From assembly GCA_964590185.1 (NCBI GenBank), contig CAZPVZ010000065.1, forward strand, positions 1 to 38,399: a stretch of DNA of 38,399 nucleotides, read 5' to 3'. Shown piece by piece: positions 8,382 to 38,399 of this stretch. Position numbers and translations under genes: made by a program. The notes beneath the pieces are model-generated. The model searched no databases. It was given only the letters and a program-made list of their open reading frames with translations, and was not told where the DNA came from. This DNA comes from an uncultured Campylobacterales bacterium (lineage in GTDB: Bacteria; Campylobacterota; Campylobacteria; Campylobacterales; JAADDG01). How positions within the stretch are numbered: position 1 is the stretch's first letter; each line of letters begins with the position of its first letter.

Positions 8382-8506
8382 TAAACGTTCCCCCGAAAAC
8401 TGCCGATATCAAAAAAGGTAAAATATAATGTAAATATTATATTTAATAAAACCTAAATAGCAGTTTAGTTAAAATTTATTAAACTTTTTTACAGTAGGAT
8501 TTTATA

Positions 8507-14671: not shown

Positions 14672-14675
14672 AAAC

Positions 14676-15110
14676 TCATATCGGTTTAACGACCACCATA
14701 ATAACTATAATTATCATTAAAATCGTGGGAACTTCGTTATAAAATCTAAAAAATTTGCCGCTTTTTACGCATTTATCTTCGGCAAGTCTCTTTCTAAAAT
14801 AGTTTAAAGAAATATGATACGCTATCAACAAACCGGCCGCAAAAAGTTTGACATAAAGCCAATCGCCGCTTTTAAAAAGAGAGGGATTTAGATAGATCAT
14901 CAAAAGTCCGCTCAAAACGGTGGCCCAAAAAGCGGGAACGCCTATAAACTTGAAAAGTTTCTCCTCTTGAATCTTAACTACTTCCACAAATCCCTTATTG
15001 TCGATGTTTTCCATATGATAAACATACAGTCTCGGCTGATAAAAAAGCATCGCCATCCAACTGATAAAACTCATAACGTGAAAAGCCAAAATCCAACCGT
15101 AATATTCCAT
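14676..15110 (-). CDS. hemJ: Protoporphyrinogen IX oxidase HemJ (UPF0093 family)
   Basis: Motif WILAFHVMSFISWMAMLFYQPRLYVYH and 4 TM helices. The ATG at 15110 is preceded by AAAGGAG at 7-nt spacing. The listed ORF start at 15143 is probably too far upstream. Confidence 0.8.
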   Translation of the reverse strand: MEYYGWILAFHVMSFISWMAMLFYQPRLYVYHMENIDNKGFVEVVKIQEEKLFKFIGVPAFWATVLSGLLMIYLNPSLFKSGDWLYVKLFAAGLLIAYHISLNYFRKRLAEDKCVKSGKFFRFYNEVPTILMIIIVIMVVVKPI

Positions 15111-15173
15111 GAAAAAGCTCCTTTTTAGAATCCATTTTAACAAAAAAAAGTTTATAAACTAAATAGAAATCTT

Positions 15174-15182
15174 TGATATAAT
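15174..15182 (+). promoter_or_regulatory. Extended -10 promoter element TGATATAAT upstream of the OM barrel gene
   Basis: TGnTATAAT at 15174-15182, 27 nt upstream of ATG 15209. An AGGGAG RBS lies at 15196-15201. The same 9-mer occurs upstream of the gene at 23319. Confidence 0.5.
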
Positions 15183-15208
15183 AATAATTATTTAAAGGGA
15201 GAAAAATT

Positions 15209-15967
15209 ATGAAAAAATTCGCTTTATTTTTAACTTCCTCTCTTCTCTCGTCTCTCCTTTGCGCCGACGTGGTAGGCATGGGAATAGGAGGAGGCGCTTG
15301 GAATCATAACGAAAGCGGTTGGATACGAAAGGACGGAAACGAAATAGACGTCGAGGAGGATTTGCATTTTAGCTCTCAAAACAACGGCTATATATGGGTT
15401 TACGTGGAGCATCCCCTTCCTCTGTTTCCCAACGTAAAAATAACGGGAACGAGACTTTCAAACGACGGAGAGGGGCCGGTTTCCAAAACGGTTAAATACG
15501 GAGATCTGATCATAAACGCAAACGGATACGAAAAAAGCTCCTTTAAACTGAATCAGCTCGATACCGTTTTATATTACGAAGTTTTGGATAGCGGCGTAAA
15601 CCTCGATATAGGAATAAACGTCAAATACATAGACGGTTCGGCGGAAATAGCGGCATACGACCCCACCGCATCCCATATTTTGAAAAAAGAATCGAAAGAT
15701 TTCACTTTAACCGTTCCCATGCTTTACGCCGACGCGAGACTTCCCATACCGATGACCAATCTCGAGCTCGGACTTACGGCAAACGCGATAAGTTACGACT
15801 CGAGCGATTTTTACGATACGAAAATCTACCTAAATTACGACATAGCGGTCGGCACGGGGTTGGAGATAGGATACAGATACGAAAAAATAAAAATAGACGA
15901 TATAGACGACATTTTTTCGGATCTCGAGATAAAAGGCGTTTATGCGGGAGTATATTTTAGATTTTAA
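15209..15967 (+). CDS. Outer-membrane beta-barrel protein
   Basis: 252 aa with a signal peptide (MKKFALFLTSSLLSSLLCA). It has alternating amphipathic strands and a C-terminal aromatic signature (GVYAGVYFRF). Confidence 0.7.
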   Translation: MKKFALFLTSSLLSSLLCADVVGMGIGGGAWNHNESGWIRKDGNEIDVEEDLHFSSQNNGYIWVYVEHPLPLFPNVKITGTRLSNDGEGPVSKTVKYGDLIINANGYEKSSFKLNQLDTVLYYEVLDSGVNLDIGINVKYIDGSAEIAAYDPTASHILKKESKDFTLTVPMLYADARLPIPMTNLELGLTANAISYDSSDFYDTKIYLNYDIAVGTGLEIGYRYEKIKIDDIDDIFSDLEIKGVYAGVYFRF

Positions 15968-15998
15968 AAAACTCGGGGTTAAGGCCTCGATAATTTCG

Positions 15999-17403
15999 CT
16001 AAAAAAGGTAGATTTTCAAAATCGATAAAACGGCGATTTCGAAAAAAACAAACGATGATAGATAAAACGCCCGTTTCAAACTCAAAAACTTGACGAATTT
16101 ATCGAATCCGAACTCCCTTATCGTATAGTAGAGCAAGACAAATCCCGCCGCGGAGCTTGCGAGAGCGAGTCCGGAAGCCTTCATCGGATATATCAAAACG
16201 AGAGACAAAACGATATTAACGAAAAGAGAGTAGGAAGCTATCTTAGCCGCCTCTTTCTGCTTATGCTTCGAATAGAGCCACAAAGAGAATATTTTGGAAA
16301 GTCCGTACGGCAAAAGCCCTATCAGATACATACTAAGAACGGAAGCGGTTATCAAAGTATCTTCGTACCGAAAACTTCCCCTCTCAAAGAGCAAAGAGAC
16401 AACCTCTTTGGAAAGCATGATTCCGCCAACGACGAAAGAGCTTAAAAGAAAGAGCAAAAACCAAAAACCGTTTTTCAAAAGATAGAGAGCCTCCTCTTCT
16501 CTTTCGTTTTTCAGATATCTCGCCACTTTCGGAAATATGGCGGTGGAAGCGGCTATCGCAAAAAGCGCCAAAGGGAGTTGAAAAACTCTGTTGGCATAAT
16601 AAAGATAGCTTATGTTTCCGGCCGCCAGAAAACTTGCGAGCCAAGTATCCAAAAAAGCGGAAACTTGAGCGGTAGAATTTCCCAAAATAGCGGGGAAAAA
16701 AGAGCGATAAAATCTCTCAACCTCATTCTTTACCGAAGCTCCCTTCTTCTTAAGATAAACGAAACCTCCCGTTAAAATTTTTAAAACTCCGAACCTTTTT
16801 GCCGCAATCAAGTGAGCTAAAAGCTGAAAAAATCCTCCCGCCAAAACTCCGAAACTCATATACCAAACGATCTCCTTGGGAGGCAAAGAGCGAGAGAGCA
16901 AAAGAGCCGCGATAATACCGATATTTAAAAAAGCGGTGGAAAAAGCGGTCGTAGCGAAGTGATTTTTATATTGCAAAAAGGAGGCCAAAAAAGTTACGAC
17001 GAAAATTATATCCAAATAATAAAAATTCAAAGCCACCAAAGGAGCCGCTTTAGAGACCGTCTCTTCATCAAATCCCACCGCTATGAGTTTGGTAAAAAAG
17101 GGAGAAAAAAGAGTTACGGTCAAAGAAAAAAGAATCAAAAACGAAATAAACCGCAAAAATATCGCCGCGCTAAAAAGACTCTTTTTTTTGGACGCGGCAA
17201 AGGAAGGAAGAAAACTTTGAACGAAGGCCCCCTCCGCAAAAATCCTTCTGAAAAGATTGGGGAGTTTGAAAGCTACGAAAAATATGTCGCTGTAAATATT
17301 GGCCCCCAAAACGGAAGCGGTTAGAAGATCCCTTATGAAACCTAAAATCCTTGAAAAGAGAATTCCGAAACTGTTTGTAAAAATAGAACGAAAAATATAT
17401 CAT
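15999..17403 (-). CDS. murJ: Lipid II flippase MurJ, with an anomalous 5' end (apparent +1 frameshift or non-canonical start)
   Basis: The listed 436-aa ORF begins at an internal TTG. The same frame continues upstream as YIFRSIFTNSFGILFSRILGFIRDLLTASVLGANIYSDIFFVAFKLPNLFRRIFAEGAF, the conserved MurJ N-terminus. That frame has no canonical start after the TGA at 17402-17400, and the ATG at 17403 is in another frame. Confidence 0.85.
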
Positions 17404-23756: not shown

Positions 23757-24498
23757 CGATTCTCAACAAAGAAACAACATAATAGAGTTTTCAACGATAG
23801 AAACTTCCTGCACCTATCTGCCCGACAGAAGAATGAGGATGAGTTACAAATACATAAAAGAAGCCTCCTTCGAACTCAACTCCGACCTGACCGAGAGAGG
23901 ATGGAGAAGATTCGGAAAATATTACTCAAGGCCTTCCTGCGCGGCATGCAGCGAATGTTTGAATTTTAGAATAGACGCTTTCAATTTCAAATTCTCAAAA
24001 TCGGCAAGAAGAGTTCTTAAGAAAAACAAACATACTAAAATGTACGTACAAACCCCCACGACTACCTCTTCCCATATAAAACTACACGAAAAATATCACA
24101 AATTCATGTCCGAAAAAAAAGGATGGAAATACCATCCGATCTCGCCGGCCACTTATAACGAGCTCTATGTCGAAGGACACGGAAATTTCGGGAAAGAGGT
24201 CTTATATTTCATAGACGATAAACTCGTAGGAGTGGATTTTATAGACATATGCCGCGACGGAATCTCCGCGATCTACTTTTTCTACGATCCCGATTACGCA
24301 AAATACTCTTTAGGCAGATATTCGATATATCAGCAGATATTAATGGCGAAGGAGCGCGGATTAAGATGGATATATTTAGGATATTATGTAAAAGAGTGCG
24401 ACTCGCTAAACTATAAAGCCTCCTACAAACCCTCTCAGATACTTATAAACTCCCCATCTTTGGAAGAAGAGCCCATATGGGTGGATATCAAAGTTTAA
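23743..24498 (+). CDS. bpt: Arginyl-tRNA-protein transferase family protein (bacterial Bpt-type Asp/Glu leucyltransferase)
   Basis: 251 aa. It has the N-terminal CTYLPDRRMRMSY motif, a Cys cluster (SRPSCAACSEC) and a C-terminal YLGYYV motif typical of Ate/Bpt enzymes. Confidence 0.75.
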   Translation: MTSNNDSQQRNNIIEFSTIETSCTYLPDRRMRMSYKYIKEASFELNSDLTERGWRRFGKYYSRPSCAACSECLNFRIDAFNFKFSKSARRVLKKNKHTKMYVQTPTTTSSHIKLHEKYHKFMSEKKGWKYHPISPATYNELYVEGHGNFGKEVLYFIDDKLVGVDFIDICRDGISAIYFFYDPDYAKYSLGRYSIYQQILMAKERGLRWIYLGYYVKECDSLNYKASYKPSQILINSPSLEEEPIWVDIKV

Positions 24499-25504
24499 AA
24501 GGCGTTCTAACTTCCAAAACGAAATCGGGAGAATCGCTCGTTAATCCTATACCCAAAGAGACGTTTACGGCTCTGTCTTTACTAAGAGCCCAGCCGGCGC
24601 CTATTTTTAACTGTGCCACGTTCAAAGTGGAATTGGCCACTTTGGTCCTGTTTCCGTCAACGGTGGAATAACTCGAGAGAGTATAATCGTACTGAAACTG
24701 AGCGTTTACCGAAAAATTGTAAGAGATGGCGTATCCGAAACCGGCATTTAAAGTGATAGTATCTCCCGGTTCGACTTTCTCAAGATGTTTTCCGTTAACC
24801 ATCATATCCACGTCTTGATCGATGTTGTAAGAGTACGAAATCCCTCCGAAAACGACGCTCGGATCTATACTTTTTATAAGATTCACTCCGGCTTTTATCG
24901 AATAGTACCCCGTTCCCAAAGGAAGCTCGTTCTTCGGATCTATATCGTAAGGTCCCTGTCCCGTTTTTGATTTAAAGCTCAGATTTAAAATAACCGCGGG
25001 CCTGTTTAAAGTCTCTCTATAAATCTGATCGCTAATCGTAAAAGTAACGTCGCCGACTCCCCACTCGTCAACGAGATCCTCCTTATTCGTCTCGACTTTG
25101 GCTCTCTGGTCGTGTCTATAGATGAGAGGCACCGCAAACTCGGCTTGCAAAAAATCCGCAATTCCGTAACGCAATAAAATCACGTCCCCTATAATCTGTC
25201 TTTTTATGGACTCTATCCCAAACTGCCCCAAAGTCAAAAAAACGGGATCCAAAATGGCGAAACTGTCCAAAAATATCTGATTGGCCGAGTTGTAAGTGAA
25301 CTGAAAATCGTTCTCGAACTCGAAAACGCCTTTTTTTAACAATACGTAATCTCTTTGAAAATGTTCCAAAACTTCCTTAGGCTGGGACTCTTTCAAAACT
25401 TCGGCAAGCTTTTTGTTCACGCCGCCGCCTTGCGACGCTCCCTCAAAAAGAGTCAAAACCAGACAAAGACTCAAAATCCTCTTATGAAAAGGCGCGTTCT
25501 TCAT
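24488..25504 (-). CDS. Outer-membrane beta-barrel protein (transporter / MetA-pathway-of-phenol-degradation-like family), last gene of the fibre-like cluster
   Basis: 338 aa with a signal peptide (ILSLCLVLTLFEGASQG). A short charged helical segment is followed by alternating beta-strand patterns to the C-terminus. Sits 13 nt downstream of the C39 gene. Confidence 0.65.
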   Translation of the reverse strand: MKNAPFHKRILSLCLVLTLFEGASQGGGVNKKLAEVLKESQPKEVLEHFQRDYVLLKKGVFEFENDFQFTYNSANQIFLDSFAILDPVFLTLGQFGIESIKRQIIGDVILLRYGIADFLQAEFAVPLIYRHDQRAKVETNKEDLVDEWGVGDVTFTISDQIYRETLNRPAVILNLSFKSKTGQGPYDIDPKNELPLGTGYYSIKAGVNLIKSIDPSVVFGGISYSYNIDQDVDMMVNGKHLEKVEPGDTITLNAGFGYAISYNFSVNAQFQYDYTLSSYSTVDGNRTKVANSTLNVAQLKIGAGWALSKDRAVNVSLGIGLTSDSPDFVLEVRTPFKL

Positions 25505-25517
25505 AAAAATTCCTCTT

Positions 25518-26216
25518 TTAATGATCTAAAAAACTTCTAAAAGACGGCAAATTATATTCGAAAATATAATTTCTAAGCATGGTATTTCCGATCCACTTCA
25601 TATCTTCTTCGGTAAGAGCCAGCCTATTGACCCCTCTTCTTTTCCGCTCTATAATCAAAGCTATATGTTTATACCATATTTTATCAAATTCGTCTCTCGG
25701 AAGTATAGTGTTTCCAAGAGCAGGATCGGCTATAAAAACTCTTCCTTTATACAATCCTCTAAAAACTACGAAATGTTTATAGTTTCCTATCGTAATCGTA
25801 ACTATGGCGGGCTTTCCCATCTCCGCCAAAGAATCCAAATCGAGCTTGTATCCGTTGACTTTATATCCCAAAGCGTTGGAAAGCTTTTTTATATCGAGAA
25901 GCGAAAAACCTTTGTTTTGGATTATTTTCATTTTATTTCCGAATCTGAAAAGACCGTTTATGACTTGATCTTCGGTTAAAGGATCGTTCAAATAGTAGTT
26001 ATATATCGTCGCCGTTGCGGCCGAACCGCAACTAAAATCCATCTTCTGCCTCACGAGATGTTTAGAATTGACGCTTTTAGAAGTTTCAACATGAGGATAG
26101 ATTTTGAAAGAGCCGAATTTCAATCCTACTATAATGGGAACCTTAGAATACTCTTTAGACGAAAGAGTTAAGATTAAAAACGGCAATAAAAAAATAATTT
26201 TTACTATTTTATTCAT
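25518..26216 (-). CDS. Periplasmic (signal-peptide-bearing) C39-family cysteine peptidase
   Basis: ATG 26216 (MNKIVKIIFLLPFLILTLSS) is preferred over the listed GTG 26228. C39 catalytic motifs are intact: Gln/Cys in QKMDFSCGSAATATIYNYY, His in YKHFVVFRG, Asp in FIADPALG. No ABC-transporter domain is attached or adjacent. Confidence 0.8.
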   Translation of the reverse strand: MNKIVKIIFLLPFLILTLSSKEYSKVPIIVGLKFGSFKIYPHVETSKSVNSKHLVRQKMDFSCGSAATATIYNYYLNDPLTEDQVINGLFRFGNKMKIIQNKGFSLLDIKKLSNALGYKVNGYKLDLDSLAEMGKPAIVTITIGNYKHFVVFRGLYKGRVFIADPALGNTILPRDEFDKIWYKHIALIIERKRRGVNRLALTEEDMKWIGNTMLRNYIFEYNLPSFRSFLDH

Positions 26217-26231
26217 ACGCCCTACCACTTC

Positions 26232-26413: not shown

Positions 26414-26548
26414 TGAACATAGCTTATACAAACACAAAAACTCCTTTCTCCAGCTACCATCTTTTAGGAGTTTGGCGTAAAGTTATGTTCCTACCCCTTT
26501 TACGGCATTCAGCAACGACTTAACCGGTCGTTTTGCTGAATGTTTTTT
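26414..26548 (+). ncRNA. Candidate ~135-nt sRNA (cis-antisense to the operon intergenic region, with trans match to the start region of the major repeat gene)
   Basis: Bounded by the promoter at 26379-26407 and the intrinsic terminator at 26506-26548. It contains TCCAGCTACCATCTTT (26449-26464), identical to 28695-28710. That makes it complementary to the mRNA segment AAAGAUGGUAGCUGGA spanning the AUG of the 557-aa protein gene. Confidence 0.35.
26506..26548 (+). terminator. Rho-independent terminator oriented on the + strand
   Basis: Arms CATTCAGCAACGAC and GTCGTTTTGCTGAATG form 10 bp, a 2-nt bulge and 4 bp around a 7-nt loop, followed by T6 (26543-26548). On the minus strand the same hairpin lacks a U-tail. 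Confidence 0.6.
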
Positions 26549-26958
26549 CAAAACGGCTTCAAAGCGGATTGAAGCTGATTGTTTATATTTATTCCTCCCG
26601 TTATTTTCGAATTCATAACGAATATTATATTAATCGGCACATTTACGGCTGAATTTACCGCATTGATAGGCACGAACGCATCTTTTTGAGCCAGACCGCT
26701 AACCATAACCGAATCAACTAAATTCGTAGGCAGATCGGCCGAAAATTTAAAAGCGTTGGAACTTATCGTATGAGTCACCGGCAAAGTATTAAACGCCAGC
26801 GAGCTTTTTATCGCATCATCCATCACTTGATAGTTTAAATTGAATCCCTGTGCCGAAATATCCGAAAGCTCTTCGTCTTTTACAACTTCTATTCCGCCGG
26901 CCGTCGAATATACGGACAATATAGCCGATATAAAGAGTAAATAGAGCGCTTTTTTCAT
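26548..26958 (-). CDS. Small secreted protein carrying one copy of the fibre-repeat core (candidate minor subunit/nucleator)
   Basis: 136 aa with signal peptide MKKALYLLFISAILSVYSTAGG. It shares the motif EELSDISAQGF with the 557-aa protein. SGLAQKDAFVPINAVNSAVNVPINII aligns to the repeat core NGxAQxxASxLxIxNxAxSAVNIGQNI. C-terminal residue is Phe. Confidence 0.75.
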   Translation of the reverse strand: MKKALYLLFISAILSVYSTAGGIEVVKDEELSDISAQGFNLNYQVMDDAIKSSLAFNTLPVTHTISSNAFKFSADLPTNLVDSVMVSGLAQKDAFVPINAVNSAVNVPINIIFVMNSKITGGININNQLQSALKPF

Positions 26959-27008
26959 CTTTTTTCCTTTAAAACATCGTTTTAACGCAAGTTAAAACAA
27001 TGTCTCAA

Positions 27009-27032
27009 GAAAGAGGAGAAGCCTCCTCTCCC
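27009..27032 (-). terminator. Stable hairpin immediately after the major repeat gene stop (partial terminator/attenuator or mRNA stabiliser)
   Basis: Minus-strand RNA GGGAGAGGAG-GCUU-CUCCUCUUUC forms a 10-bp stem including two G.U pairs. It starts right after the TAA and is followed by UUGAG... A second perfect 8-bp palindrome (GTTTTAAC-TTGC-GTTAAAAC) lies at 26979-26998. Confidence 0.45.
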
Positions 27033-28706
27033 TTAAAAATTGGTAGCGGTTTGAACCGCGGTTTGAGAAATACTCCAATTGGTTGCGGTTTGGATATTCG
27101 CTATATTCAACCCGTAGTTAACCGCACTTCCGGCGGTATTGCCCAAAATAAGGCTGGACGTTCCGGTTTGAGCGTCTATTAATTGAACTTTTCCGTTATT
27201 ATTGGCTTGTTTTTCGATATTGCCGTTATTTACTACGTCTTGATTATGAGTTCCGCAATTCTCCGCGGTTTGCGTATTGGTTTGAGTCAATACGGAAGCG
27301 GTTGTCGGATTGCCGCTAACGTCCAAAATATTGGCCGCGCTGTTAACCGCGGAATCGGCGCTATTGTGAGAAGCCAAAGAAGCCAAATCTTTTTGGGCGT
27401 TATTGATTTGAACCGCTCCGTTATTGTTTTGGCCGTTATCGGCGCTTCCGTTTACGATTTTTTGAGGAGCGGTGTATTTGTTAACCGCGTTTTGGGTGTT
27501 GGCTTGATCTATGAAATTAAGATTTCCGGCGTTTTCTATCGAAGCTATGTTTTGACCTATGTTAACCGCGGAGTTTGCGGTATTGGTAAAAGCCATGCCG
27601 GAAACTCCGTTTTGAGCTCCGTTTACTTGAACCGCCGCATTGTTGTTGTTGGCGTTGGAAGCTTTCTTAGCGGTTGAAACATATTGATACTCGTACTCTC
27701 CGTTACCGTTGAAAGCTTGTTGAGTATTTGTTTGAGAAACTTTTATATTTCCGGTTACGTCCTTAGCCTGCATGATATTTTGACCCACGTTCTCAGCGGA
27801 ATAAGAAGTATTTGTGATGGAGAGTCCGTTGGCCTCGTCCTGAGCGTTACCGTTAGCCTGTACGGAACCGCTATTGTTTTGTTGCTGTAAAGTATTCTCT
27901 CCGTTTTTAACGGTTTGCTCGAGCATCGTTTTGGAGTGAGTGGCTTTTTGATCGTTTTCCTGCCACAATTTAGGATTCTCCGTATCGGTCGCATACAAGA
28001 TGTTCTGTCCGATGTTTTTAGCCGAAGAAGCGGCATTATCGATAGACAACGCGCTCGCTTTGCTTTGAGCGTCGCCGTTTAATTGAACGGCCGCGTTATT
28101 GTTGCTTTGCTCGTTAACGGTATCTTCGCTCGCTATATGCTGAATTAGAGCGTTAGTATTGGACGCCTGTTGCGAATTTTTTTGTCTTAAGACCAGATTT
28201 TTGGATTTATCGACCGTCAAAATATTTTGTCCCTCGTTGATTCCGGATTTCGCCGCGTTAACCATAACCGCCGCGGAAGCTTCGCTTTGAGCCTTATCGC
28301 TTAGATTGACGGCTCCGTTATCGTTAACCTGCTTATGCAAAGGACCTTTGTTCGTAGTCGTCTGAACGGCGTTTTTGCCGTTTTTCGCAATTTGGCAATT
28401 CTTTTGAGTAAGTTCTCCGCTTCCGTTTACCAAATTGGCAACGTTTTGATTGGCGTTTATAGCCGAAGAGGAACTGTTTACGATCTCCATTCCTTGAGCC
28501 TCTTTTTGAGAGGTTCCTCTAAGCTCCAAAGCTTCGTTGTTGTTAAGCTGATCGTTAGCCGTACCTCCGTTGTAAATATTTTGAATACCTTGCGCGCTAA
28601 CGTCCCCCAACTCGTCTTCGGATAAAGTGCTCACGCCCGCAATCGCCGCCGATGAAACAACCATAGCAACGAGAGCGGAAATCATGATCCGTTTTCCAGC
28701 TACCAT
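27033..28706 (-). CDS. Secreted Asn/Gln/Ala/Ser/Gly-rich protein with seven imperfect 73-77-aa repeats (candidate major fibre/amyloid-like subunit)
   Basis: 557 aa with signal peptide MVAGKRIMISALVAMVVSSAAIAG, an AGGAG RBS and the post-signal motif LSEDELGDVSAQG. Repeat cores start at aa 55, 128, 202, 277, 354, 427 and 502. Only 2 Cys. The C-terminus is TATNF. Confidence 0.85.
   Translation of the reverse strand: MVAGKRIMISALVAMVVSSAAIAGVSTLSEDELGDVSAQGIQNIYNGGTANDQLNNNEALELRGTSQKEAQGMEIVNSSSSAINANQNVANLVNGSGELTQKNCQIAKNGKNAVQTTTNKGPLHKQVNDNGAVNLSDKAQSEASAAVMVNAAKSGINEGQNILTVDKSKNLVLRQKNSQQASNTNALIQHIASEDTVNEQSNNNAAVQLNGDAQSKASALSIDNAASSAKNIGQNILYATDTENPKLWQENDQKATHSKTMLEQTVKNGENTLQQQNNSGSVQANGNAQDEANGLSITNTSYSAENVGQNIMQAKDVTGNIKVSQTNTQQAFNGNGEYEYQYVSTAKKASNANNNNAAVQVNGAQNGVSGMAFTNTANSAVNIGQNIASIENAGNLNFIDQANTQNAVNKYTAPQKIVNGSADNGQNNNGAVQINNAQKDLASLASHNSADSAVNSAANILDVSGNPTTASVLTQTNTQTAENCGTHNQDVVNNGNIEKQANNNGKVQLIDAQTGTSSLILGNTAGSAVNYGLNIANIQTATNWSISQTAVQTATNF
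27036..28544 (-). repeat. Seven tandem coding repeats (protein-level, diverged at DNA level)
   Basis: Aligned cores:
- NNNEALELRGTSQKEAQGMEIVNSSSSAINANQNVANL
- NDNGAVNLSDKAQSEASAAVMVNAAKSGINEGQNILTV
- NNNAAVQLNGDAQSKASALSIDNAASSAKNIGQNILYA
- NNSGSVQANGNAQDEANGLSITNTSYSAENVGQNIMQA
- NNNAAVQVNGAQNGVSGMAFTNTANSAVNIGQNIASI
- NNNGAVQINNAQKDLASLASHNSADSAVNSAANILDV
- NNNGKVQLIDAQTGTSSLILGNTAGSAVNYGLNIANI. Confidence 0.85.
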
Positions 28707-28882: not shown

Positions 28883-29530
28883 TTATTCTATAATATAACC
28901 CACGCCTTTTATGTTTTTGATAACCTTATAACCTATTTTTTTATGAATATCCCTGATATGGCTCGCTAAAGTCTTATAGTTTTTTATATCCTCGTCCCAA
29001 ACGTATTCGCTTAGCGTCTCTCTTCCGACTATCCTGCCTCTATTCTTAACCAAAAAATAGAAAATTTTATGCTGTTTGTTAGTTAATTTAACTATCCTTT
29101 CCCCGCAATAAAGTTCCCTCTTGGCCAAATTGTACTTAATATTCGAGCTTAAAGATATCTCCTTATTCGAGTGAGTGCATCTTAAAACGTTTTTTATCCT
29201 CACCATCAACTCTTCTATATCGAACGGCTTTTTTATATAGTCATAACTTCCCAAATAAAAACATCTCTTAATATAACTAACGTCCTTCTTATTGCTTATA
29301 ACGATGGAAGGCGTATTTATGGCGTTTGCCTGCATATATTCGAGCATTTCGAAAATATCGCTCTTTTTTATATCCAGATCCAAAATCAAAATATCGAAAT
29401 CGTGCAAATTTTCATGTAAAAGCATCTCATCCATATCTTCAAACTTCTTCACATAAAAATCTTGCATCTCAAAGTAGAAAGGTATCCTTCTTTTATAAAA
29501 AACGTCGTCCGATAAAAGAGCGATTTTCAT
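28883..29530 (-). CDS. OmpR/PhoB-family response regulator (receiver + winged-helix), no cognate kinase adjacent
   Basis: 215 aa. Receiver residues are present (LLSDD acidic pair, ILILDLD phospho-Asp, IVIS, DYIKKPF Lys). The C-terminal winged helix has LTNKQHKIFYFLV, REtLSEYVW and IKNIKGVGYIIE. The gene is visibly more AT-rich than its neighbours. Confidence 0.85.
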   Translation of the reverse strand: MKIALLSDDVFYKRRIPFYFEMQDFYVKKFEDMDEMLLHENLHDFDILILDLDIKKSDIFEMLEYMQANAINTPSIVISNKKDVSYIKRCFYLGSYDYIKKPFDIEELMVRIKNVLRCTHSNKEISLSSNIKYNLAKRELYCGERIVKLTNKQHKIFYFLVKNRGRIVGRETLSEYVWDEDIKNYKTLASHIRDIHKKIGYKVIKNIKGVGYIIE

Positions 29531-34210: not shown

Positions 34211-34663
34211 CTAAGGCTTTTGAATCGTTCTTCTATGAACCCTTATCGGTTCCGAAAGATTCAGATTGGAAGAGCTCGATACGACCGTATCGACCAAAAC
34301 CGTCATATGCGAGTTGCTTCCCGTAGTTAAACCGTCGGACAACACTTGAGAACAAGTCGTGGGAGCTTGACTCGAATCGATAATATACCATAAAGATACG
34401 TTAATATCGAACATCGAAGAGGCGGCGGAAGGATAGGTGATGTCTATCCTCTCTACGCAGCTGTTTCTATTATTGTGCCCCAAAATGGCCAAAACAGCAT
34501 ATTCCGTAGCGCTTTGGGCCAAAAGCTCCGCCTGCTCTTTAAGATAAGCGTCACTCGTTTGCTTGGCGCTTGAGGAGGATAAGGATATCATCAAAGCCGA
34601 AAGCGTTGAAACCGTTACCAAAACAACAATTGCCAAAAATAGAGAAAAACCTTTCCTTTTCAA
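34211..34663 (-). CDS. Minor pseudopilin-like protein lacking Glu+5
   Basis: 150 aa. TTG start within a TTGA overlap with the upstream stop. The N-terminus KRKGFSLFLAIVVLVTV is prepilin-like, but Leu replaces the conserved Glu5, as in GspK-type minor pseudopilins. Confidence 0.6.
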   Translation of the reverse strand: MKRKGFSLFLAIVVLVTVSTLSALMISLSSSSAKQTSDAYLKEQAELLAQSATEYAVLAILGHNNRNSCVERIDITYPSAASSMFDINVSLWYIIDSSQAPTTCSQVLSDGLTTGSNSHMTVLVDTVVSSSSNLNLSEPIRVHRRTIQKP

Positions 34664-35571
34664 AATATAGCCCTTTCCTTACAAACCGCAAAATCGAAAC
34701 CGCTTTTGTTATCGTCGTGTATGCAAAGTTTCACCCTCAGAGTCTGCCCTATCTGTTTAAATCTGAAAGAGGAGACGTGCTCGGCTAAAACCGCCGATTT
34801 TCCGTCTTGATAAGTCTCTCCCTCCCAAGGCTGAAAATTGTAATAGAGAGTAAGATTCATATCGTTAACTCCCGTAGAAACCGGAACTATCGCGTAAGCG
34901 CTCCATGAGAGAGCGTATCTTTCATATACGTCTTTGGAAGCCGAAGCCTGAGAAGCGTCGCTGAACAACAAAATATCCTCTCCGTTTCTTTTAACGTTAT
35001 AAGTATAGTTGTGATCCCCGCTGCCGCTCCATCCGAATTGAGATTTATCGGCATGATAAAATCCCTTGAAAATCAAAGCGGGAGTATCCGAAGCGCCGGT
35101 TAAATTAACCTCTCCGTCGGAAAGAGCGTTTATCAATCTATCCGCCACGCTAAGAACGCTTCCCGGAGTTTTCACCTGAGATTTGCTCGTTTGGGAGCTG
35201 TTTATGTCTATAAGAGCGCTCCATCCCGGAACGAAGAAATTTTTCGAAGAGTTAAAATCTCCCTTAAAACCTTCGTTGTCAACCCCTATCCACTCCAAAG
35301 CGGTATAAGTGTTATCCAAAGTCGGATCGTCAAGCGCTTTATAAACTCCGGTCGGCGTAACCGCTATAAGACTGTCTTTTATTCTGTTTTGCAATCTTTT
35401 TACTATTTGATTTAAAACTATCTCCGTCTGACTCTCGAGACGATTTATGGAATAACTTCTCATATAGCCGGTATAAAGATGGGTTATAACGTCGGTTCCT
35501 ATAACCGCCGTTATAGCCATAACGATAATTACTAAAACAAGTTCCAAAAGAGTAAAAGCTCTCTTTACCAT
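34660..35571 (-). CDS. Type IV pilin/pseudopilin-like protein (prepilin-type N-terminal domain)
   Basis: ATG 35571 (MVKRAFTLLELVLVIIVMAI) overlaps the upstream TAA by 1 nt. It has the N-methylation/cleavage motif with Ala at -1 and Glu+5. Confidence 0.7.
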   Translation of the reverse strand: MVKRAFTLLELVLVIIVMAITAVIGTDVITHLYTGYMRSYSINRLESQTEIVLNQIVKRLQNRIKDSLIAVTPTGVYKALDDPTLDNTYTALEWIGVDNEGFKGDFNSSKNFFVPGWSALIDINSSQTSKSQVKTPGSVLSVADRLINALSDGEVNLTGASDTPALIFKGFYHADKSQFGWSGSGDHNYTYNVKRNGEDILLFSDASQASASKDVYERYALSWSAYAIVPVSTGVNDMNLTLYYNFQPWEGETYQDGKSAVLAEHVSSFRFKQIGQTLRVKLCIHDDNKSGFDFAVCKERAIF

Positions 35572-36320
35572 TAAAAAAACGTCCTTTTCAAGATATCGGA
35601 CTCTCCTATGTTGCAAGAGTAGTATCTGAGCACGAAAGGAGAGATTACGCCGGATACTCTTATCTCTATCATTTTAATATTCGAATCCTCTCCGGCGGGT
35701 TTAAAAGTATCGGCAAAATTGAAATTTATGTTTTGCGCGCTGTAATCGGCATTGTCGCTTACGTATCCCACGGTAACGTTAAGATCGAAATTGTCCCTGT
35801 TTAAATAATCAAGATCCGTTCCCTCCTGATTTACCAAAGAGGTGACGGCCTCTCCGTTAAAATCGTCCACGTCGTTGGGATTTGTAAGATTTACTTCCGA
35901 AATGTTCGGATAAGTCGGAGAATCGAACATTCTTCTCCTTCCGTCTCCCACTATCTGCCCCTCCAAACCCCCGTTCGGGAAAAATACCGAAAACCAGTTC
36001 CAAAAAAATATGCAAGCAAGATTCAACGGGAAAGGATAGGAGCTACAAACCGAAGAATCGAACCTCTGAAGCTCGCTATCGGAATTTGAAGTATCGAGTA
36101 TGTAAACCTTTCCCGTAACGGGATCCAAACTGTTTTCGTCCCATCTGTAAGTAGTTATGTTTTGAATTTTCGTCTTAGCCATCAAAACGCTCTCTTGCAT
36201 CGTGGAAAACTCGTCGCTTTTCGAAGAGCTCTCGAGTAAAATCGGAATGCTCATGAAAGCGATGCCTATAACCACTATCGAAACGACCAATTCTATGAAA
36301 GTAAAGCCTTTCCTTACCAT
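35571..36320 (-). CDS. Type IV pilin/pseudopilin-like protein (prepilin-type N-terminal domain)
   Basis: 249 aa with the canonical MVRKGFTFIELVVSIVVIGIAF motif. Its start overlaps the stop of the upstream large gene by 7 nt. Confidence 0.75.
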   Translation of the reverse strand: MVRKGFTFIELVVSIVVIGIAFMSIPILLESSSKSDEFSTMQESVLMAKTKIQNITTYRWDENSLDPVTGKVYILDTSNSDSELQRFDSSVCSSYPFPLNLACIFFWNWFSVFFPNGGLEGQIVGDGRRRMFDSPTYPNISEVNLTNPNDVDDFNGEAVTSLVNQEGTDLDYLNRDNFDLNVTVGYVSDNADYSAQNINFNFADTFKPAGEDSNIKMIEIRVSGVISPFVLRYYSCNIGESDILKRTFF

Positions 36321-38399
36321 GATATCTTCCTATTCTTTTTGATGGAGATTTTCTCGTCAACGGTATGTCCGAGTTTTCCTTTCCCCGCCCACTTCGTATC
36401 GGCGTTTAAAAAAGCCACGTTAAAATCCACGCTCGTAGCAAAAGGATCGGAACTCGAATATACAAGCCACATCGAAGGCGACAAATGAATTTTGTCGTTA
36501 TGAGGAACGCTTGAAACCTTCAAATCCAAACTGTTTATTCTCAAATCGCTAATTACCGTTCCGTGATCCGACGAAGCGGAATTTACCTTCCCGTAAAAAT
36601 AGGAATGAGAAGGATTCTCGTACCAATACAAATCCCCTCTTTTGCATAAAGAACCGTTTGCGAGAGTAAAAACGCTCTTATCGCAATTTTTACAGTAAAT
36701 CTCGTAATAAAACGGAAGATCATCCGCGGTATCTCCCAAAATATTAAGATAATCGGGAGCATGAACCCTCGCATAATAAAACTTCACTTCCTCGTTGTGA
36801 GAAGACTCTCCGTTTATATCTTCGTCGTTGGCTTTGACTTTCGAAAAAGTAAGCTTCAAAGGTTCCCTCTCCTTGTCCGCTTCCCTTTTGAAATTGATCA
36901 TTAAAGTGGTGTTGTTTTCTCCGGCGCTAAAATAGGCTTTCGGGATATCGGCTTTAAAATTTAAACCGGTAACGGGAACCGAAAACGACACGGCCGAAGA
37001 GTCAGAGTGGGAAAGATGATAAGCGTCCTTCCATTTTAAGATATAAGGAGAAGTATCGGCTCCTTCCGCCGAAAAAGTTATCGTTAAGTTGCTGTCCTTG
37101 GCGTAACAGGACGCGTCGTAATTTCTAACCGCGTTTCCGCTATAACTTTTAGCCTTTACGTTCACTTTCAATTTGGCTCCCATCAAATAGGGATCGTCGC
37201 TATAATAAGTATATCCCAAAGCGGGAGTTAGGTTTTCAAAATTCCAATTTACTTCGAAACTATTAGGAATGAAACTCATAGAAGCCGAAGAAGAGGGTAT
37301 CTCTCTCAAAGAAAGAGGAGTGTCGTCGCTATCGACCGAGGCGAATTCGCTTCCTACAATCTCGCTTATATTAAAATCAACCTTTCCTATTTCGTCATAG
37401 AAAGTGTTTTTTAAAAAAACTCCGTTATTAAAAGAAGTTCCGCCCAAAGAGATAACTCCGGTATTGCACCCGGTTTTCTCCTCTTTATAAGTTATCTTAA
37501 AAGAGCCGTCTATGGTTTCGTTATAGTTGTTCAAAGGATTCGAATTAAAATCCTTAGCTACGACTTTAAAATCGAAATTCTCTCCCGCAACTTTAACGGA
37601 AGGCAGTTCGAACTCGTATTTAAAAGGTCTGATCGCAAAATCATCCGTCGAAACCGAGACGCTTCCCAACGCATCCGCCGTACATTCGTAACATCCGAAC
37701 GGATGATCGTAAGGAGGTTCTCCCATTCCGCGTTTATCGGATCTGCAAGGATGGCCGTTATTTCTTATACACCTATCGTAAGCCTCTCTTCCGAAAGCAT
37801 TTAAATATTTTTCGCTATCGTCCACGCAACTGCACATACCTCTTATACCGCTATCGTTATTCTTATCCAAAAAACAAGAACATCTATCCCTTTCGAAAAA
37901 CAGTTTCACAAAATCTATATATTTCATCTTAATCTTAGCTCTTCTTATGGCTCTATCGGGCATTACCGCGGAAGGAATATGAGAAGAGACGCTGTTTTGA
38001 TTGAATACGGAAACCACTACGTTTCCGGAAGCGTCCTTTAAAATATAAGAATAGGAAGGATCGTCCATATCCACGATTCTATACAAAACTTCCAAAGAAG
38101 GCAGATCTACCGCATAAGGATAATAAGGAACCGGAGAAAAAGACTCGTTTAAATAGACCGCATCGAAAGAGTACTCTTTAGAGGCTATTTTCGTTTTCAA
38201 TCCCTTCTCTTTTGCGTATCCCGAACCGAAATCGTCTATAATATCCACGACGTTATTGCCGATTACGACTCCTTCTATAATTCCGGCGGAATGGATGTTG
38301 CTGTTTCCTATCTTATCGACCCACTCTCCCGTCAGCGCGTTTTTGTATCTTGAATGAGCCTGATTTAAAACTCTATGATCTCTATTGCTTAAAAAACCG
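36314..38399 (-). CDS. Large Cys-rich extracellular protein, 5'-truncated by the window edge (possible MshQ/PilY1-like pilus-associated tip/adhesin)
   Basis: The listed 644-aa ORF starts at an internal GTG. The frame stays open to position 38399 (...HSRYKNALTGEWVDKIGNSNIHSAGIIEGVVIGNNVVDIIDDF, LamG/lectin-like). There are 8 Cys within aa 123-189 of the listed ORF, and the remainder is beta-rich. First gene of the pseudopilin operon. Confidence 0.6.
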   Translation of the reverse strand, partial: GFLSNRDHRVLNQAHSRYKNALTGEWVDKIGNSNIHSAGIIEGVVIGNNVVDIIDDFGSGYAKEKGLKTKIASKEYSFDAVYLNESFSPVPYYPYAVDLPSLEVLYRIVDMDDPSYSYILKDASGNVVVSVFNQNSVSSHIPSAVMPDRAIRRAKIKMKYIDFVKLFFERDRCSCFLDKNNDSGIRGMCSCVDDSEKYLNAFGREAYDRCIRNNGHPCRSDKRGMGEPPYDHPFGCYECTADALGSVSVSTDDFAIRPFKYEFELPSVKVAGENFDFKVVAKDFNSNPLNNYNETIDGSFKITYKEEKTGCNTGVISLGGTSFNNGVFLKNTFYDEIGKVDFNISEIVGSEFASVDSDDTPLSLREIPSSSASMSFIPNSFEVNWNFENLTPALGYTYYSDDPYLMGAKLKVNVKAKSYSGNAVRNYDASCYAKDSNLTITFSAEGADTSPYILKWKDAYHLSHSDSSAVSFSVPVTGLNFKADIPKAYFSAGENNTTLMINFKREADKEREPLKLTFSKVKANDEDINGESSHNEEVKFYYARVHAPDYLNILGDTADDLPFYYEIYCKNCDKSVFTLANGSLCKRGDLYWYENPSHSYFYGKVNSASSDHGTVISDLRINSLDLKVSSVPHNDKIHLSPSMWLVYSSSDPFATSVDFNVAFLNADTKWAGKGKLGHTVDEKISIKKNRKISW

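What the first reader, a model, noticed from the sequence alone, without database searches (positions are those of the whole stretch)
26845..28625. Shared double-glycine-leader-like motif placed behind a Sec signal peptide in both structural proteins
Immediately after the predicted signal peptides, the two proteins share a motif:
- 557-aa protein, aa 28-45 (DNA 28587-28625 covers the core, aa 28-40): LSEDELGDVSAQGIQNIY.
- 136-aa protein, aa 26-43 (DNA 26845-26883 covers the core, aa 26-38): VKDEELSDISAQGFNLNY.
- Consensus: [ED][ED]EL[GS]D[VI]SAQG[IF]xxxY.

The pattern of acidic and hydrophobic positions mirrors the LSxxELxxIxGG leader consensus recognised by C39 peptidases, but with AQ(G) in place of GG. 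It sits downstream of a Sec signal rather than at the extreme N-terminus.

The signal-peptide-bearing C39 peptidase is encoded downstream in the same cluster. Together these suggest two-step maturation: Sec export, then periplasmic C39 recognition or cleavage. Alternatively the tag may target the proteins to the OM barrel.
Basis: partly seen in the sequence, partly recalled or inferred. Interest (0 to 1): 0.7.

Follow-up and report, generated by a model that had tools for sequence, protein, structure and literature searches.

The report
Sec signal plus double-glycine-like leader
Both fibre-subunit proteins of this gene cluster carry, just behind their export signal, a bacteriocin-style leader that is probably the docking and cutting site for the neighbouring periplasmic C39 protease, and the same tag marks the substrates of related Fap/Fil surface-fibre systems in many bacterial phyla.

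Summary
Both motifs sit exactly where stated. The core ELxx[VI]SAQG is invariant in 20 orthologues of the 136-aa protein. It is present in 47 of 48 signal-peptide-bearing homologues of the two proteins.

One relative has a true double glycine in the same register (SDDELDDISGG). A model trained only on this family was run against 80 loci fetched solely by similarity to the C39 peptidase. It found 95 tagged ORFs in 59 loci, against 0 in a reversed-sequence control. All 91 on the peptidase's strand lie within 6 kb of it, 88 of them upstream.

The tag keeps the canonical double-glycine-leader register: hydrophobic at -4, -7, -12 and -15, and small Gly/Ala at -2. Position -1 is usually Gln.

The neighbouring genes are a free C39 peptidase with intact catalytic residues and a FapF/FilC-like outer-membrane barrel. 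In the AlphaFold model of the 557-aa protein, order begins just after Gln39.

The best reading is Sec export, then leader recognition and probably cleavage by the periplasmic C39, coupled to export through the barrel. Cleavage itself is inferred, not shown. I found no publication describing this tag.

The parts
27033..28706 (-). Gene for the 557-aa major structural protein: signal peptide, leader, then seven or so N/Q-rich beta repeats.
   Evidence: ORF. No Pfam or NCBIfam family. 33 homologues. AlphaFold2 model with pLDDT 80.6 and pTM 0.83, all-beta and repetitive, residues 1-39 disordered. No significant PDB fold match.
28638..28706 (-). Sec-type signal peptide of the 557-aa protein (aa 1-23, MVAGKRIMISALVAMVVSSAAIA|G).
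   Evidence: Read from the sequence: KR n-region, hydrophobic core, AxA site. Helix 3-17 in the model. No dedicated predictor was run.
28590..28637 (-). Double-glycine-like leader of the 557-aa protein (aa 24-39, GVSTLSEDELGDVSAQ). The putative cleavage lies after Q39, before G40-IQNIY.
   Evidence: Motif verified and conserved in homologues. Register matches GG variants. Ordered structure starts at 40-42.
26548..26958 (-). Gene for the 136-aa minor structural protein: signal, leader and a single repeat unit. It is a paralogue of the N-terminal part of the 557-aa protein.
   Evidence: ORF. 20 orthologues. hhalign against the large-protein family: 97.8% probability, E 9e-13. 53 relatives among 1.84 billion representatives.
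26899..26958 (-). Sec-type signal peptide of the 136-aa protein (aa 1-20, MKKALYLLFISAILSVYSTA|G).
   Evidence: Read from the sequence. Helix 2-20 in the model.
26848..26898 (-). Double-glycine-like leader of the 136-aa protein (aa 21-37, GGIEVVKDEELSDISAQ). The putative cleavage lies after Q37, before G38-FNLNY.
   Evidence: L31, S35, A36, Q37, G38 and F39 are invariant in 20 orthologues.
25518..26228 (-). Free-standing C39 cysteine peptidase with an N-terminal signal or anchor (FapD/FilB-like). It is the presumed reader and cutter of the leader. The start is probably the ATG at 26216.
   Evidence: Pfam Peptidase_C39, 78.4 bits against a cut-off of 22. NCBIfam FilB 2e-49 and FapD 2e-34, both below the equivalog cut-offs. 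Gln57/Cys63/His148/Asp164 are invariant in 29 relatives. Nearest solved relatives are LahT150 (6mpz) and PCAT1 (4ry2).
24488..25504 (-). Outer-membrane beta-barrel (FapF/FilC-like, Phenol_MetA_deg), the presumed export channel.
   Evidence: Pfam PF13557, 4e-9. NCBIfam FapF 7.5e-40 and FilC 5e-39, both below cut-offs. The same gene order recurs in L001 and L003.
28883..29530 (-). OmpR-type response regulator directly upstream on the same strand. It may regulate the cluster, but this rests on adjacency only.
   Evidence: Pfam Response_reg + Trans_reg_C. Not conserved next to the cassette in L001. L003 has other regulators nearby.
27003..27038 (-). Terminator-like 16-pair hairpin directly after the stop codon of the 557-aa gene. 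It may attenuate transcription so that the major subunit is expressed in excess.
   Evidence: Consensus scan. Terminator-like sites in the region are not above the shuffle expectation (7 found, 5.8 expected), so this is weak.

Best explanation
The four genes form a compact Fap/Fil-type surface-fibre export cassette: a 557-aa repeat protein, a 136-aa single-repeat paralogue, a free C39 peptidase and a FapF/FilC-like outer-membrane barrel.

Each structural protein has a tandem N-terminal address.
- First comes a Sec signal peptide, removed by signal peptidase I (inferred).
- This exposes a propeptide of about 16-17 residues that is a double-glycine-type leader. It has acidic residues at -8 to -10, Leu at -7, Val/Ile at -4, a hydrophobic residue at -12 and small Ala at -2. 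Gln stands at -1 where classical leaders have Gly.

In the periplasm the cognate C39 peptidase binds this leader. It most likely cuts after Ala-Gln (Q39 and Q37). This would release an unfolded subunit starting Gly-[Ile/Phe]-x-x-x-Tyr, which is passed through the barrel and polymerises outside.

Shown here:
- the motif, its conservation and its register;
- its tight genomic coupling to periplasmic C39 genes across phyla;
- intact catalytic residues in the peptidase;
- a disordered leader followed by an ordered beta domain in the model.

Inferred:
- signal-peptidase processing;
- binding by the C39;
- cleavage and its exact position;
- coupling to the barrel;
- fibre formation.
For: 1. Conservation.
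- The core is invariant in 20 orthologues of the small protein.
- It is present in 47 of 48 signal-bearing homologues of the two proteins, including Syntrophorhabdaceae and Nitrosophilus.
- It is present in nearly all of the 53 relatives found by exhaustive search of 1.84 billion proteins.

2. Register.
- P0051 reads IVSDDELDDISGG-QLQ and L001 reads TLDELDEITGG-G. These place true Gly-Gly exactly where the window has Ala-Gln.
- Across 84 unique leaders, -12 is M/L/I/V in 80, -15 is L/M/I in 64, -7 is Leu in 70, -4 is V/I in 66, -10 is Asp in 66 and -1 is Gln in 60.
- These are the hydrophobic positions of classical double-glycine leaders (established knowledge).

3. Co-occurrence.
- The gene order large protein, small protein, C39, barrel recurs in an Aquificota-like MAG and in Syntrophorhabdaceae. 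Every secreted structural ORF there carries the tag: four in L001 and five in L003.
- An HMM seeded only on the window family was run on 15,674 ORF segments from 80 loci fetched by C39 similarity alone.
- After three iterations it gave 95 hits at 12 bits or more, against 0 in the control, spread over 59 loci.
- 91 hits are on the C39 strand, all within 6 kb, and 88 are upstream.
- Position -1 sits at a median of residue 38 from the Met, IQR 36-40.

4. The mature domains differ between systems: N/Q repeats here, DUF6160/FilA in Acinetobacter and Pseudomonas, and small KIILWDE proteins. The tag is therefore a portable module.

5. The peptidase looks active.
- Gln/Cys/His/Asp are invariant.
- It is homologous to the LahT and PCAT1 double-glycine proteases.
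- FapD needs its catalytic Cys and a periplasmic location for secretion (PMC5557850).

6. The AlphaFold model has residues 1-39 below pLDDT 50 and its first strand at 42-46.

7. FapD-like loci carry Leu(-7)...Gly-Gly sites in the adjacent secreted proteins, for example LDAVRGG-FDFGNG and LEESRGG-FDVAGL.
Against: - No experimental datum shows cleavage in any member. In the literature held, the FapD substrate is still only 'thought to' be FapE or FapF.
- Gln, Arg or Lys at -1 is unusual for C39 peptidases, which classically take Gly, Ala or Ser.
- Residues after the proposed site are also strongly conserved (Gly, then Ile/Phe, then Tyr/Phe at +6). In FilA-type proteins the tag is part of the Pfam DUF6160 model. 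The segment could therefore belong to the mature fold.
- 21 of 80 C39 loci gave no hit. In 5 of them the C39 is at a contig edge. About 11 are Marinobacter/Oleiphilaceae-type loci with no candidate gene upstream.
- The Gly/Ala count at -2 was imposed by my anchoring pattern and is not independent evidence.
- The iterated HMM also absorbed conserved residues downstream of the tag, which inflates FilA-type scores.
Confidence: 0.65

Rival explanations
1. The segment is an uncleaved outer-membrane targeting tag. It directs the unfolded subunit to the FapF/FilC-like barrel or to the peptidase acting as a chaperone, much as the N22 segment of CsgA targets CsgG (own knowledge). It stays on the mature protein. 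The C39 would cut something else, such as the barrel's periplasmic linker or another component, as proposed for FapF and FapE.
For: - Residues after the putative site are conserved (P+2 and P+5).
- The tag lies inside Pfam DUF6160 in FilA-type proteins.
- Rouse et al. saw N-terminal peptides for all Fap proteins except FapE, and suggested FapF-linker cleavage.
- Gln at -1 is atypical for C39 cleavage.
Against: - The exact double-glycine register, and true Gly-Gly variants at the same positions, are hard to explain without the protease active site reading -2/-1.
- The catalytic residues are invariant.
- The leader is disordered and set apart from the ordered domain in the model.
- The window barrel has only a short periplasmic N-terminus, with no long linker to process.
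Confidence: 0.2
2. The segment is simply the conserved N-terminal strand or cap of a family of paralogous fibre subunits. It would be needed for subunit-subunit docking or nucleation. Its likeness to a double-glycine leader and its linkage to the C39 would follow only from shared ancestry of the whole operon.
For: - The two window proteins are paralogues.
- The motif is followed directly by the first predicted beta strand.
- Operon-wide co-inheritance would also produce co-occurrence.
Against: - The tag is attached to mature domains with no detectable similarity: N/Q repeats, DUF6160, and KIILWDE small proteins.
- The window proteins do not match DUF6160 or FilA.
- The tag's own residues 24-39 are not part of the ordered model.
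- Up to five differently built tagged proteins sit next to one peptidase (L027, L001).
Confidence: 0.1
3. The similarity is a chance or compositional match between two acidic post-signal segments and has no function.
For: The motif is short, with 8 of 18 residues identical between the two window proteins.
Against: - Invariance in orthologues.
- 95 hits against 0 in the reversed control, all beside C39 genes.
- No other hit among 637 window ORF segments.
Confidence: 0.01

Closest known systems
Fap functional-amyloid system of Pseudomonas (FapA-F; FapD peptidase, FapF barrel)
   Same: - A free periplasmic C39 peptidase sits next to a Phenol_MetA_deg/FapF-type barrel and N/Q-rich repeat subunits, with a long and a short paralogue like FapC and FapB.
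- The peptidase matches NCBIfam FapD at 2e-34 and the barrel matches FapF at 7.5e-40.
- FapD's catalytic Cys is required for secretion.
   Different: - Scores are far below the equivalog cut-offs (119 against 330 bits, and 137 against 700).
- No FapA or FapE counterpart is present.
- The structural proteins match no Fap model.
- The barrel lacks the long coiled-coil and linker.
- For Fap no substrate leader has been defined, and Rouse et al. state that Fap proteins lack canonical C39 sequences. Here a clear leader is present on every subunit.
Acinetobacter Fil putative pilus system (FilA/DUF6160, FilB, FilC, FilD-F)
   Same: - It is the best NCBIfam match for the peptidase (FilB, 2e-49) and a co-best match for the barrel (FilC, 5e-39).
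- FilA/DUF6160 proteins carry the same signal + D-x-x-L-x-x-[VIT]-x-G-Q tag directly upstream of FilB.
   Different: - The window proteins do not match FilA or DUF6160.
- The FilA tag has Gly-Gln plus one extra residue before the conserved Gly (TGQ-D/A-G-I against SAQ-G-F).
- No FilD, FilE or FilF genes lie in the window cluster.
- No paper on Fil processing was found in the library.
Double-glycine leader peptides processed by PCAT/AMS ABC transporters (LahT, PCAT1, ComA)
   Same: - The leader register is the same: Leu -12, Ser -11, Glu -8, Leu -7, Val/Ile -4 and a small residue at -2.
- The peptidase is homologous to LahT150 (6.5e-15) and PCAT1 (9e-11), with Cys and His aligned.
- The L001 GG leader even weakly matches the Pfam Type-A lantibiotic leader model (E 0.025).
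   Different: - Classical leaders are at the extreme N-terminus of cytoplasmic precursors with no Sec signal. They are cut by a C39 domain fused to an inner-membrane ABC exporter, after Gly-Gly/Ala/Ser.
- Here the leader is behind a Sec signal and the peptidase is free and periplasmic.
- The channel is an outer-membrane barrel, and -1 is usually Gln, Arg or Lys.
Curli CsgA N22 targeting segment and CsgG channel (own knowledge)
   Same: A short post-signal N-terminal segment on an unfolded amyloid-type subunit addresses it to a dedicated outer-membrane channel. A long and a short paralogue serve as fibre and nucleator.
   Different: N22 is not removed and no protease is involved. CsgG is an unrelated lipoprotein channel.
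LapG/LapA periplasmic proteolysis (own knowledge)
   Same: A periplasmic cysteine protease cuts the N-terminal region of a Sec-independent adhesin at a small-residue site (Ala-Ala) near its outer-membrane pore.
   Different: LapG belongs to a different protease family (C93, transglutaminase-like). Its cut releases the adhesin from the surface and is not part of subunit maturation. The substrate is exported by a type I system.

Membership tests
Double-glycine (GG) leader peptide | Conserved amphipathic pattern: hydrophobic at -4, -7, -12 and -15, and acidic at about -8. | tested here: met
   The window has L-12, S-11, E-8, L-7 and V/I-4. Across 84 leaders, -12 is M/L/I/V in 80, -15 is L/M/I in 64, -7 is Leu in 70 and -4 is V/I in 66.
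Double-glycine (GG) leader peptide | Gly at -2 and Gly/Ala/Ser at -1. | tested here: not met
   The window has Ala-Gln in both proteins. Relatives have GG, AG, AK, AR or GQ at the same positions. Only the small residue at -2 is kept.
Double-glycine (GG) leader peptide | Located at the extreme N-terminus of a cytoplasmic precursor, with no Sec signal. | tested here: not met
   A 20-23-residue Sec-like signal precedes the leader. Position -1 is at residues 39 and 37, and at a median of 38 in 80 relatives.
Double-glycine (GG) leader peptide | Removed by a C39 peptidase. | not testable with these tools
   Only indirect support: genomic coupling, intact catalytic residues, and a disorder-to-order boundary at residues 39/40.
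Peptidase family C39 | Match to the family profile above the curated cut-off. | tested here: met
   PF03412, 78.4 bits against a cut-off of 22. PDB relatives are 6mpz and 4ry2.
Peptidase family C39 | Catalytic Cys, His and Asp, and the oxyanion Gln. | tested here: met
   Q57, C63, H148 and D164 are invariant in 29 sequences including the window protein.
PCAT/AMS bacteriocin exporter | C39 domain fused to an ABC transporter. | tested here: not met
   The protein has 236 aa: an N-terminal signal or anchor and the peptidase domain only. The ABC-transporter models match only over the peptidase part.
Fap system (fapABCDEF) | FapD and FapF equivalogs. | tested here: not met
   FapD scores 118.6 bits against a cut-off of 330, and FapF scores 137 against 700.
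Fap system (fapABCDEF) | FapA/B/C/E-type proteins in the operon. | tested here: not met
   The 557-aa and 136-aa proteins match no Pfam or NCBIfam family at E <= 0.1. No further ORFs lie between the regulator and the barrel.
Fil putative pilus system (FilA-F) | FilB and FilC above the NCBIfam cut-offs. | tested here: not met
   FilB scores 168.3 bits against 475, and FilC scores 134.6 against 630.
Fil putative pilus system (FilA-F) | FilA / DUF6160 structural subunit. | tested here: not met
   The window proteins give no DUF6160 or FilA hit. True FilA proteins do: 309.6 bits for FilA, and DUF6160 at E 3.7e-10 to 5.3e-26.
Fil putative pilus system (FilA-F) | FilD, FilE and FilF genes downstream of the barrel. 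| tested here: not met
   Downstream of the barrel lies an oppositely oriented arginyl/leucyl-tRNA-protein transferase gene. Acinetobacter loci have proteins of about 554, 420 and 630-670 aa there.

The most novel reading that the evidence does not exclude
The tandem 'Sec signal + GG-like leader' may be the general, so far undescribed substrate code of the whole FapD/FilB-FapF/FilC class of two-step secretion systems. These systems span Campylobacterota, Aquificota, Desulfobacterota, Omnitrophota and Pseudomonadota.

On this reading a free periplasmic C39 peptidase and an outer-membrane barrel together act as a split, outer-membrane analogue of a PCAT exporter. The leader serves as both translocation ticket and cleavage site. 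The specificity has shifted from Gly-Gly to small residue-Gln/Arg/Lys.

This would also identify what FapD-type enzymes cut. FapE-position proteins in FapD-like loci carry Leu(-7)...Arg-Gly-Gly sites.
Probability: 0.45. Interest if true: 0.8.

Novelty: new variant of a known kind. Interest (0 to 1): 0.66.

Why it matters
Free periplasmic C39 peptidases paired with FapF-type barrels have been known since 2017 to be essential for Fap amyloid export. A December 2025 review still says only that FapD 'is thought to' process FapE or FapF.

A defined leader, present on every structural protein of this cassette, gives a concrete and testable substrate. The same tag recurred next to the C39 gene in 59 of the 80 best loci examined, from a scan that found at least 594 relatives.
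- It predicts the mature N-termini.
- It predicts a shifted protease specificity: Gly/Ala at -2 and Gln/Arg/Lys/Gly at -1.
- It suggests a way to route heterologous unfolded proteins across the outer membrane.
- It assigns a likely role to the N-terminus of Pfam DUF6160/FilA.
- It links Fap, Fil and several unannotated fibre families into one mechanistic class.

Tried and rejected
- **AlphaFold2 of the 136-aa protein** with its 20-sequence alignment gave pLDDT 46. It is uninformative beyond a low-confidence helix over the leader.
- **Foldseek of the good 557-aa model** against the PDB gave no significant match (best E 0.15, TM about 0.05). The weak list is made up of beta-helix proteins. The fold class is left as 'repetitive all-beta, no solved relative'.
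- **A first fixed regular expression** missed the FilA-type tags (TGQDG) and picked up a few spurious internal matches. It was replaced by HMMs with a reversed-sequence control.
- **Canonical Pseudomonas fap operon.** I tried to reach one, to test FapB/C/E directly, through the plasmid collection. None was present. I found only FapD-like loci in Cupriavidus and Rhodanobacter.
- **Literature.** None returned a description of this leader or of Fil processing. The library lacks most subscription journals, so absence is not proof.
- **A third substrate in the window.** I looked for the KIILWDE type seen in L001 and L003 and found none.
- **Cleavage after the following Gly** (SAQG|F) was considered and rejected. 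It puts Leu at -8 and Val/Ile at -5. In FilA-type proteins it shifts the register by one more residue, which breaks the fixed -4/-7/-12 spacing.
Full report
**1. Observation**

The minus strand of the window carries a compact cluster:

| Coordinates (-) | Product |
|---|---|
| 28883-29530 | response regulator |
| 27033-28706 | 557-aa N/Q-rich protein |
| 26548-26958 | 136-aa protein |
| 25518-26228 | 236-aa protein |
| 24488-25504 | 338-aa protein |

- Residues 28-45 of the large protein read LSEDELGDVSAQGIQNIY.
- Residues 26-43 of the small protein read VKDEELSDISAQGFNLNY.

Both segments follow an N-terminus with the features of a Sec signal: MVAGKR-hydrophobic-AIA|G and MKK-hydrophobic-STA|G. 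This was read from the sequence, because no signal-peptide predictor was available.

**2. The neighbours**

- The 236-aa protein is a C39 peptidase (Pfam PF03412, 78.4 bits).
- Its best NCBIfam matches are the free periplasmic enzymes FilB (2e-49) and FapD (2e-34).
- The 338-aa protein is a Phenol_MetA_deg barrel matching FapF (7.5e-40) and FilC (5e-39).
- All four NCBIfam scores are far below the equivalog cut-offs.
- The two structural proteins match no Pfam or NCBIfam family.
- In an alignment of 29 relatives the peptidase keeps Gln57, Cys63, His148 and Asp164.
- Its nearest solved relatives are the double-glycine proteases LahT150 (6mpz, 6.5e-15) and PCAT1 (4ry2), with Cys and His aligned.

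**3. Conservation**

- Twenty orthologues of the small protein, from Campylobacterota including Nitrosophilus, keep L31, S35, A36, Q37, G38 and F39 without exception.
- The large protein has 33 homologues, including Syntrophorhabdaceae.
- Every homologue that starts with a signal peptide has [LM][ST][DE]x[DE][LM]xx[VI]xA[QRK]G. The five without it are N-terminal fragments.
- P0051 reads IVSDDELDDISGG-QLQ. This is a canonical double-glycine leader with Gly-Gly exactly where the window has Ala-Gln.
- An exhaustive profile search of 1.84 billion representatives with the small-protein family found 53 relatives at E <= 1e-3. Nearly all carry a signal followed by ELDxVxA[Q/R/K/G/A/E]G.
- The two window proteins are themselves paralogues. 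The small one equals signal + leader + one repeat unit of the large one (hhalign 97.8%, E 9e-13).

**4. Coupling to the peptidase**

The contigs encoding P0051 and P0033 show the same order: large protein, small protein, C39, barrel. In Syntrophorhabdaceae the cassette occurs twice in tandem.

Every secreted structural ORF there has the tag:
- L001: TLDELDEITGG-G, LSEEELDEVSAK-G, VSDDELDDISGG-Q, GDRELEEVYAG-N.
- L003: five ORFs, with AR or AK at -2/-1.

One peptidase in L001 thus serves substrates with Gly, Lys or Gly at -1, and always Gly or Ala at -2.

I then fetched 80 loci from one genome per species purely by similarity to the peptidase.
- A 22-column HMM was trained only on window-family leaders.
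- Run on 15,674 ORF segments, it found 11 hits at 10 bits or more, against none in reversed sequences.
- Every genuine hit at 5 bits or more had a signal peptide and lay on the peptidase strand within about 5 kb.
- After three iterations there were 95 hits at 12 bits or more. The reversed control gave none at that score (maximum 11.5 bits).
- The 95 hits lie in 59 of 80 loci. 91 are on the peptidase strand, all within 6 kb, and 88 are upstream.
- Of the 21 loci without a hit, five have the peptidase at a contig edge. About eleven are Marinobacter/Oleiphilaceae-type loci with no candidate upstream gene.

**5. Wider families**

In Acinetobacter, Pseudomonas, Roseateles, Kistimonas and others the tagged proteins are FilA/DUF6160 proteins. 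Examples are AMQAMDDAALSSTTGQ-DGINIGI and DLKALDDTDLAGVTGQ-AGISI. The window proteins do not match these models. The tag is therefore attached to different mature domains.

Anchored on the canonical register, 84 unique leaders give the following:

| Position | Residue(s) | Count of 84 |
|---|---|---|
| -1 | Gln | 60 |
| -4 | Val/Ile | 66 |
| -7 | Leu | 70 |
| -10 | Asp | 66 |
| -12 | Met/Leu/Ile/Val | 80 |
| -15 | Leu/Met/Ile | 64 |

- Gly/Ala at -2 was imposed by the anchoring pattern, so its count is not independent. It is nevertheless visible in all listed sequences.
- Position -1 lies at a median of residue 38 from the start, IQR 36-40. After signal-peptidase cleavage this leaves a propeptide of roughly 10-17 residues.

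Two FapD-like loci were also examined: Rhodanobacter L083 and Cupriavidus CH34 L084. Their peptidases score 130-149 bits on FapD and their barrels 141-153 bits on FapF.
- The proteins in the FapE position read ...LDAVRGG-FDFGNG... and ...LEESRGG-FDVAGL...
- The small upstream proteins read KLDDVRGG-AELV and LAMSSGG-NEV.
- These again have Leu at -7 and Gly at -2.
- This rests on two loci read by eye.

**6. Structure**

- The 557-aa model is confident (pLDDT 80.6, pTM 0.83) and is a repetitive all-beta fold.
- Residues 1-39 are below pLDDT 50 and the first strand is 42-46. Order thus begins right after the proposed cut.
- No solved structure matches significantly.
- The small-protein model is of low confidence.

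**7. Mechanism**

The best-supported reading has three steps:
1. Sec export and signal-peptidase cleavage expose a double-glycine-type leader.
2. The free periplasmic C39 peptidase recognises the leader and probably cuts after Ala-Gln.
3. The unfolded subunit passes through the FapF/FilC-like barrel. Outside, the 557-aa subunit polymerises, with the single-repeat paralogue as nucleator, cap or anchor.

The motif, its register, its coupling to the peptidase and the enzyme's integrity are shown. Every biochemical step is inferred.

Cleavage after the following Gly was rejected because it breaks the fixed -4/-7/-12 spacing. An uncleaved targeting tag, like curli N22, remains a serious rival. It could also be combined with cleavage.

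**8. Literature**

- Rouse et al. [quoted passage not shown] They left the substrate open.
- The 2018 review noted fapD-fapF pairs in five further phyla.
- A December 2025 review still says FapD 'is thought to' process FapE and FapF.
- Searches for DUF6160, FilA/FilB/FilF, periplasmic C39 and COG3271 returned nothing on this leader.
- The library omits most subscription journals.

**9. Verdict**

- The system is not a member of Fap or Fil by curated thresholds, but it works like them.
- The tag is a new variant of the double-glycine leader: post-Sec, periplasmic, with small residue-Gln at -2/-1.
- It appears to be general for this class of peptidase-barrel systems.

Noticed in passing
L001:8742-8990 and L003:9596-9916: A third family of small tagged proteins (82 and 106 aa) shares a conserved KIILWDE(A) segment after the leader. 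The L001 copy has a true GG leader (TLDELDEITGG-G), which weakly matches the Pfam Type-A lantibiotic leader model (E 0.025). None is present in the window or in L004-L083.
   Followed up: partly
L083:10708-11220, L083:9477-9998, L084:6414-6890, L084:7566-8738: FapD/FapF-like loci of Rhodanobacter soli and Cupriavidus metallidurans CH34 carry Leu(-7)...Gly-Gly sites in the flanking secreted proteins. In the 390-aa FapE-position protein the site lies about 172 residues in (LEESRGG-FDVAGL). This recalls the reported loss of the first ~70 residues of FapE.
   Followed up: partly
window 27003-27038 (-): A terminator-like hairpin of 16 pairs lies directly after the stop of the 557-aa gene and before the 136-aa gene. 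It may set a high major-to-minor subunit ratio. Terminator-like sites in the region are not enriched over shuffles.
   Followed up: no
L040, L050, L053, L056, L057, L061, L068, L070, L075, L081 (Marinobacter/Oleiphilaceae/Hahellaceae-type loci): These loci have a FilB-like peptidase, a barrel and FilD/FilE-like genes, but no tagged ORF within the flanks held. The substrates may be encoded elsewhere or may carry a divergent tag.
   Followed up: partly
window 34211-38248 (-): A run of genes whose products start with prepilin-type N-termini, such as MVKRAFTLLELVLVIIV and MVRKGFTFIELVVSIVV. They are followed by a 644-aa protein. This looks like a pseudopilin/type IV-pilin-like cluster unrelated to the finding.
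   Followed up: no
window 11001-17000: AT skew rises to +0.19 to +0.30 over about 6 kb, while the rest of the window is near zero or negative. This suggests a long plus-strand gene or genes of unusual composition.
   Followed up: no
L027 (Roseateles koreensis) 5522-9749; L082: Up to five or six differently sized tagged DUF6160-type paralogues lie in tandem upstream of a single FilB-like peptidase. Position -1 varies between Gln and Arg within one locus.
   Followed up: partly
alignment A2, C-termini of the peptidases: Most Campylobacterota, Aquificota and Desulfobacterota members end in an aromatic ...EF or ...DF. Gammaproteobacterial FilB-like members end in a basic Y/F-[KR]-R-[KQN]. The window protein ends ...SFLDH. 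The meaning is unknown; this could be a docking element for the barrel.
   Followed up: no
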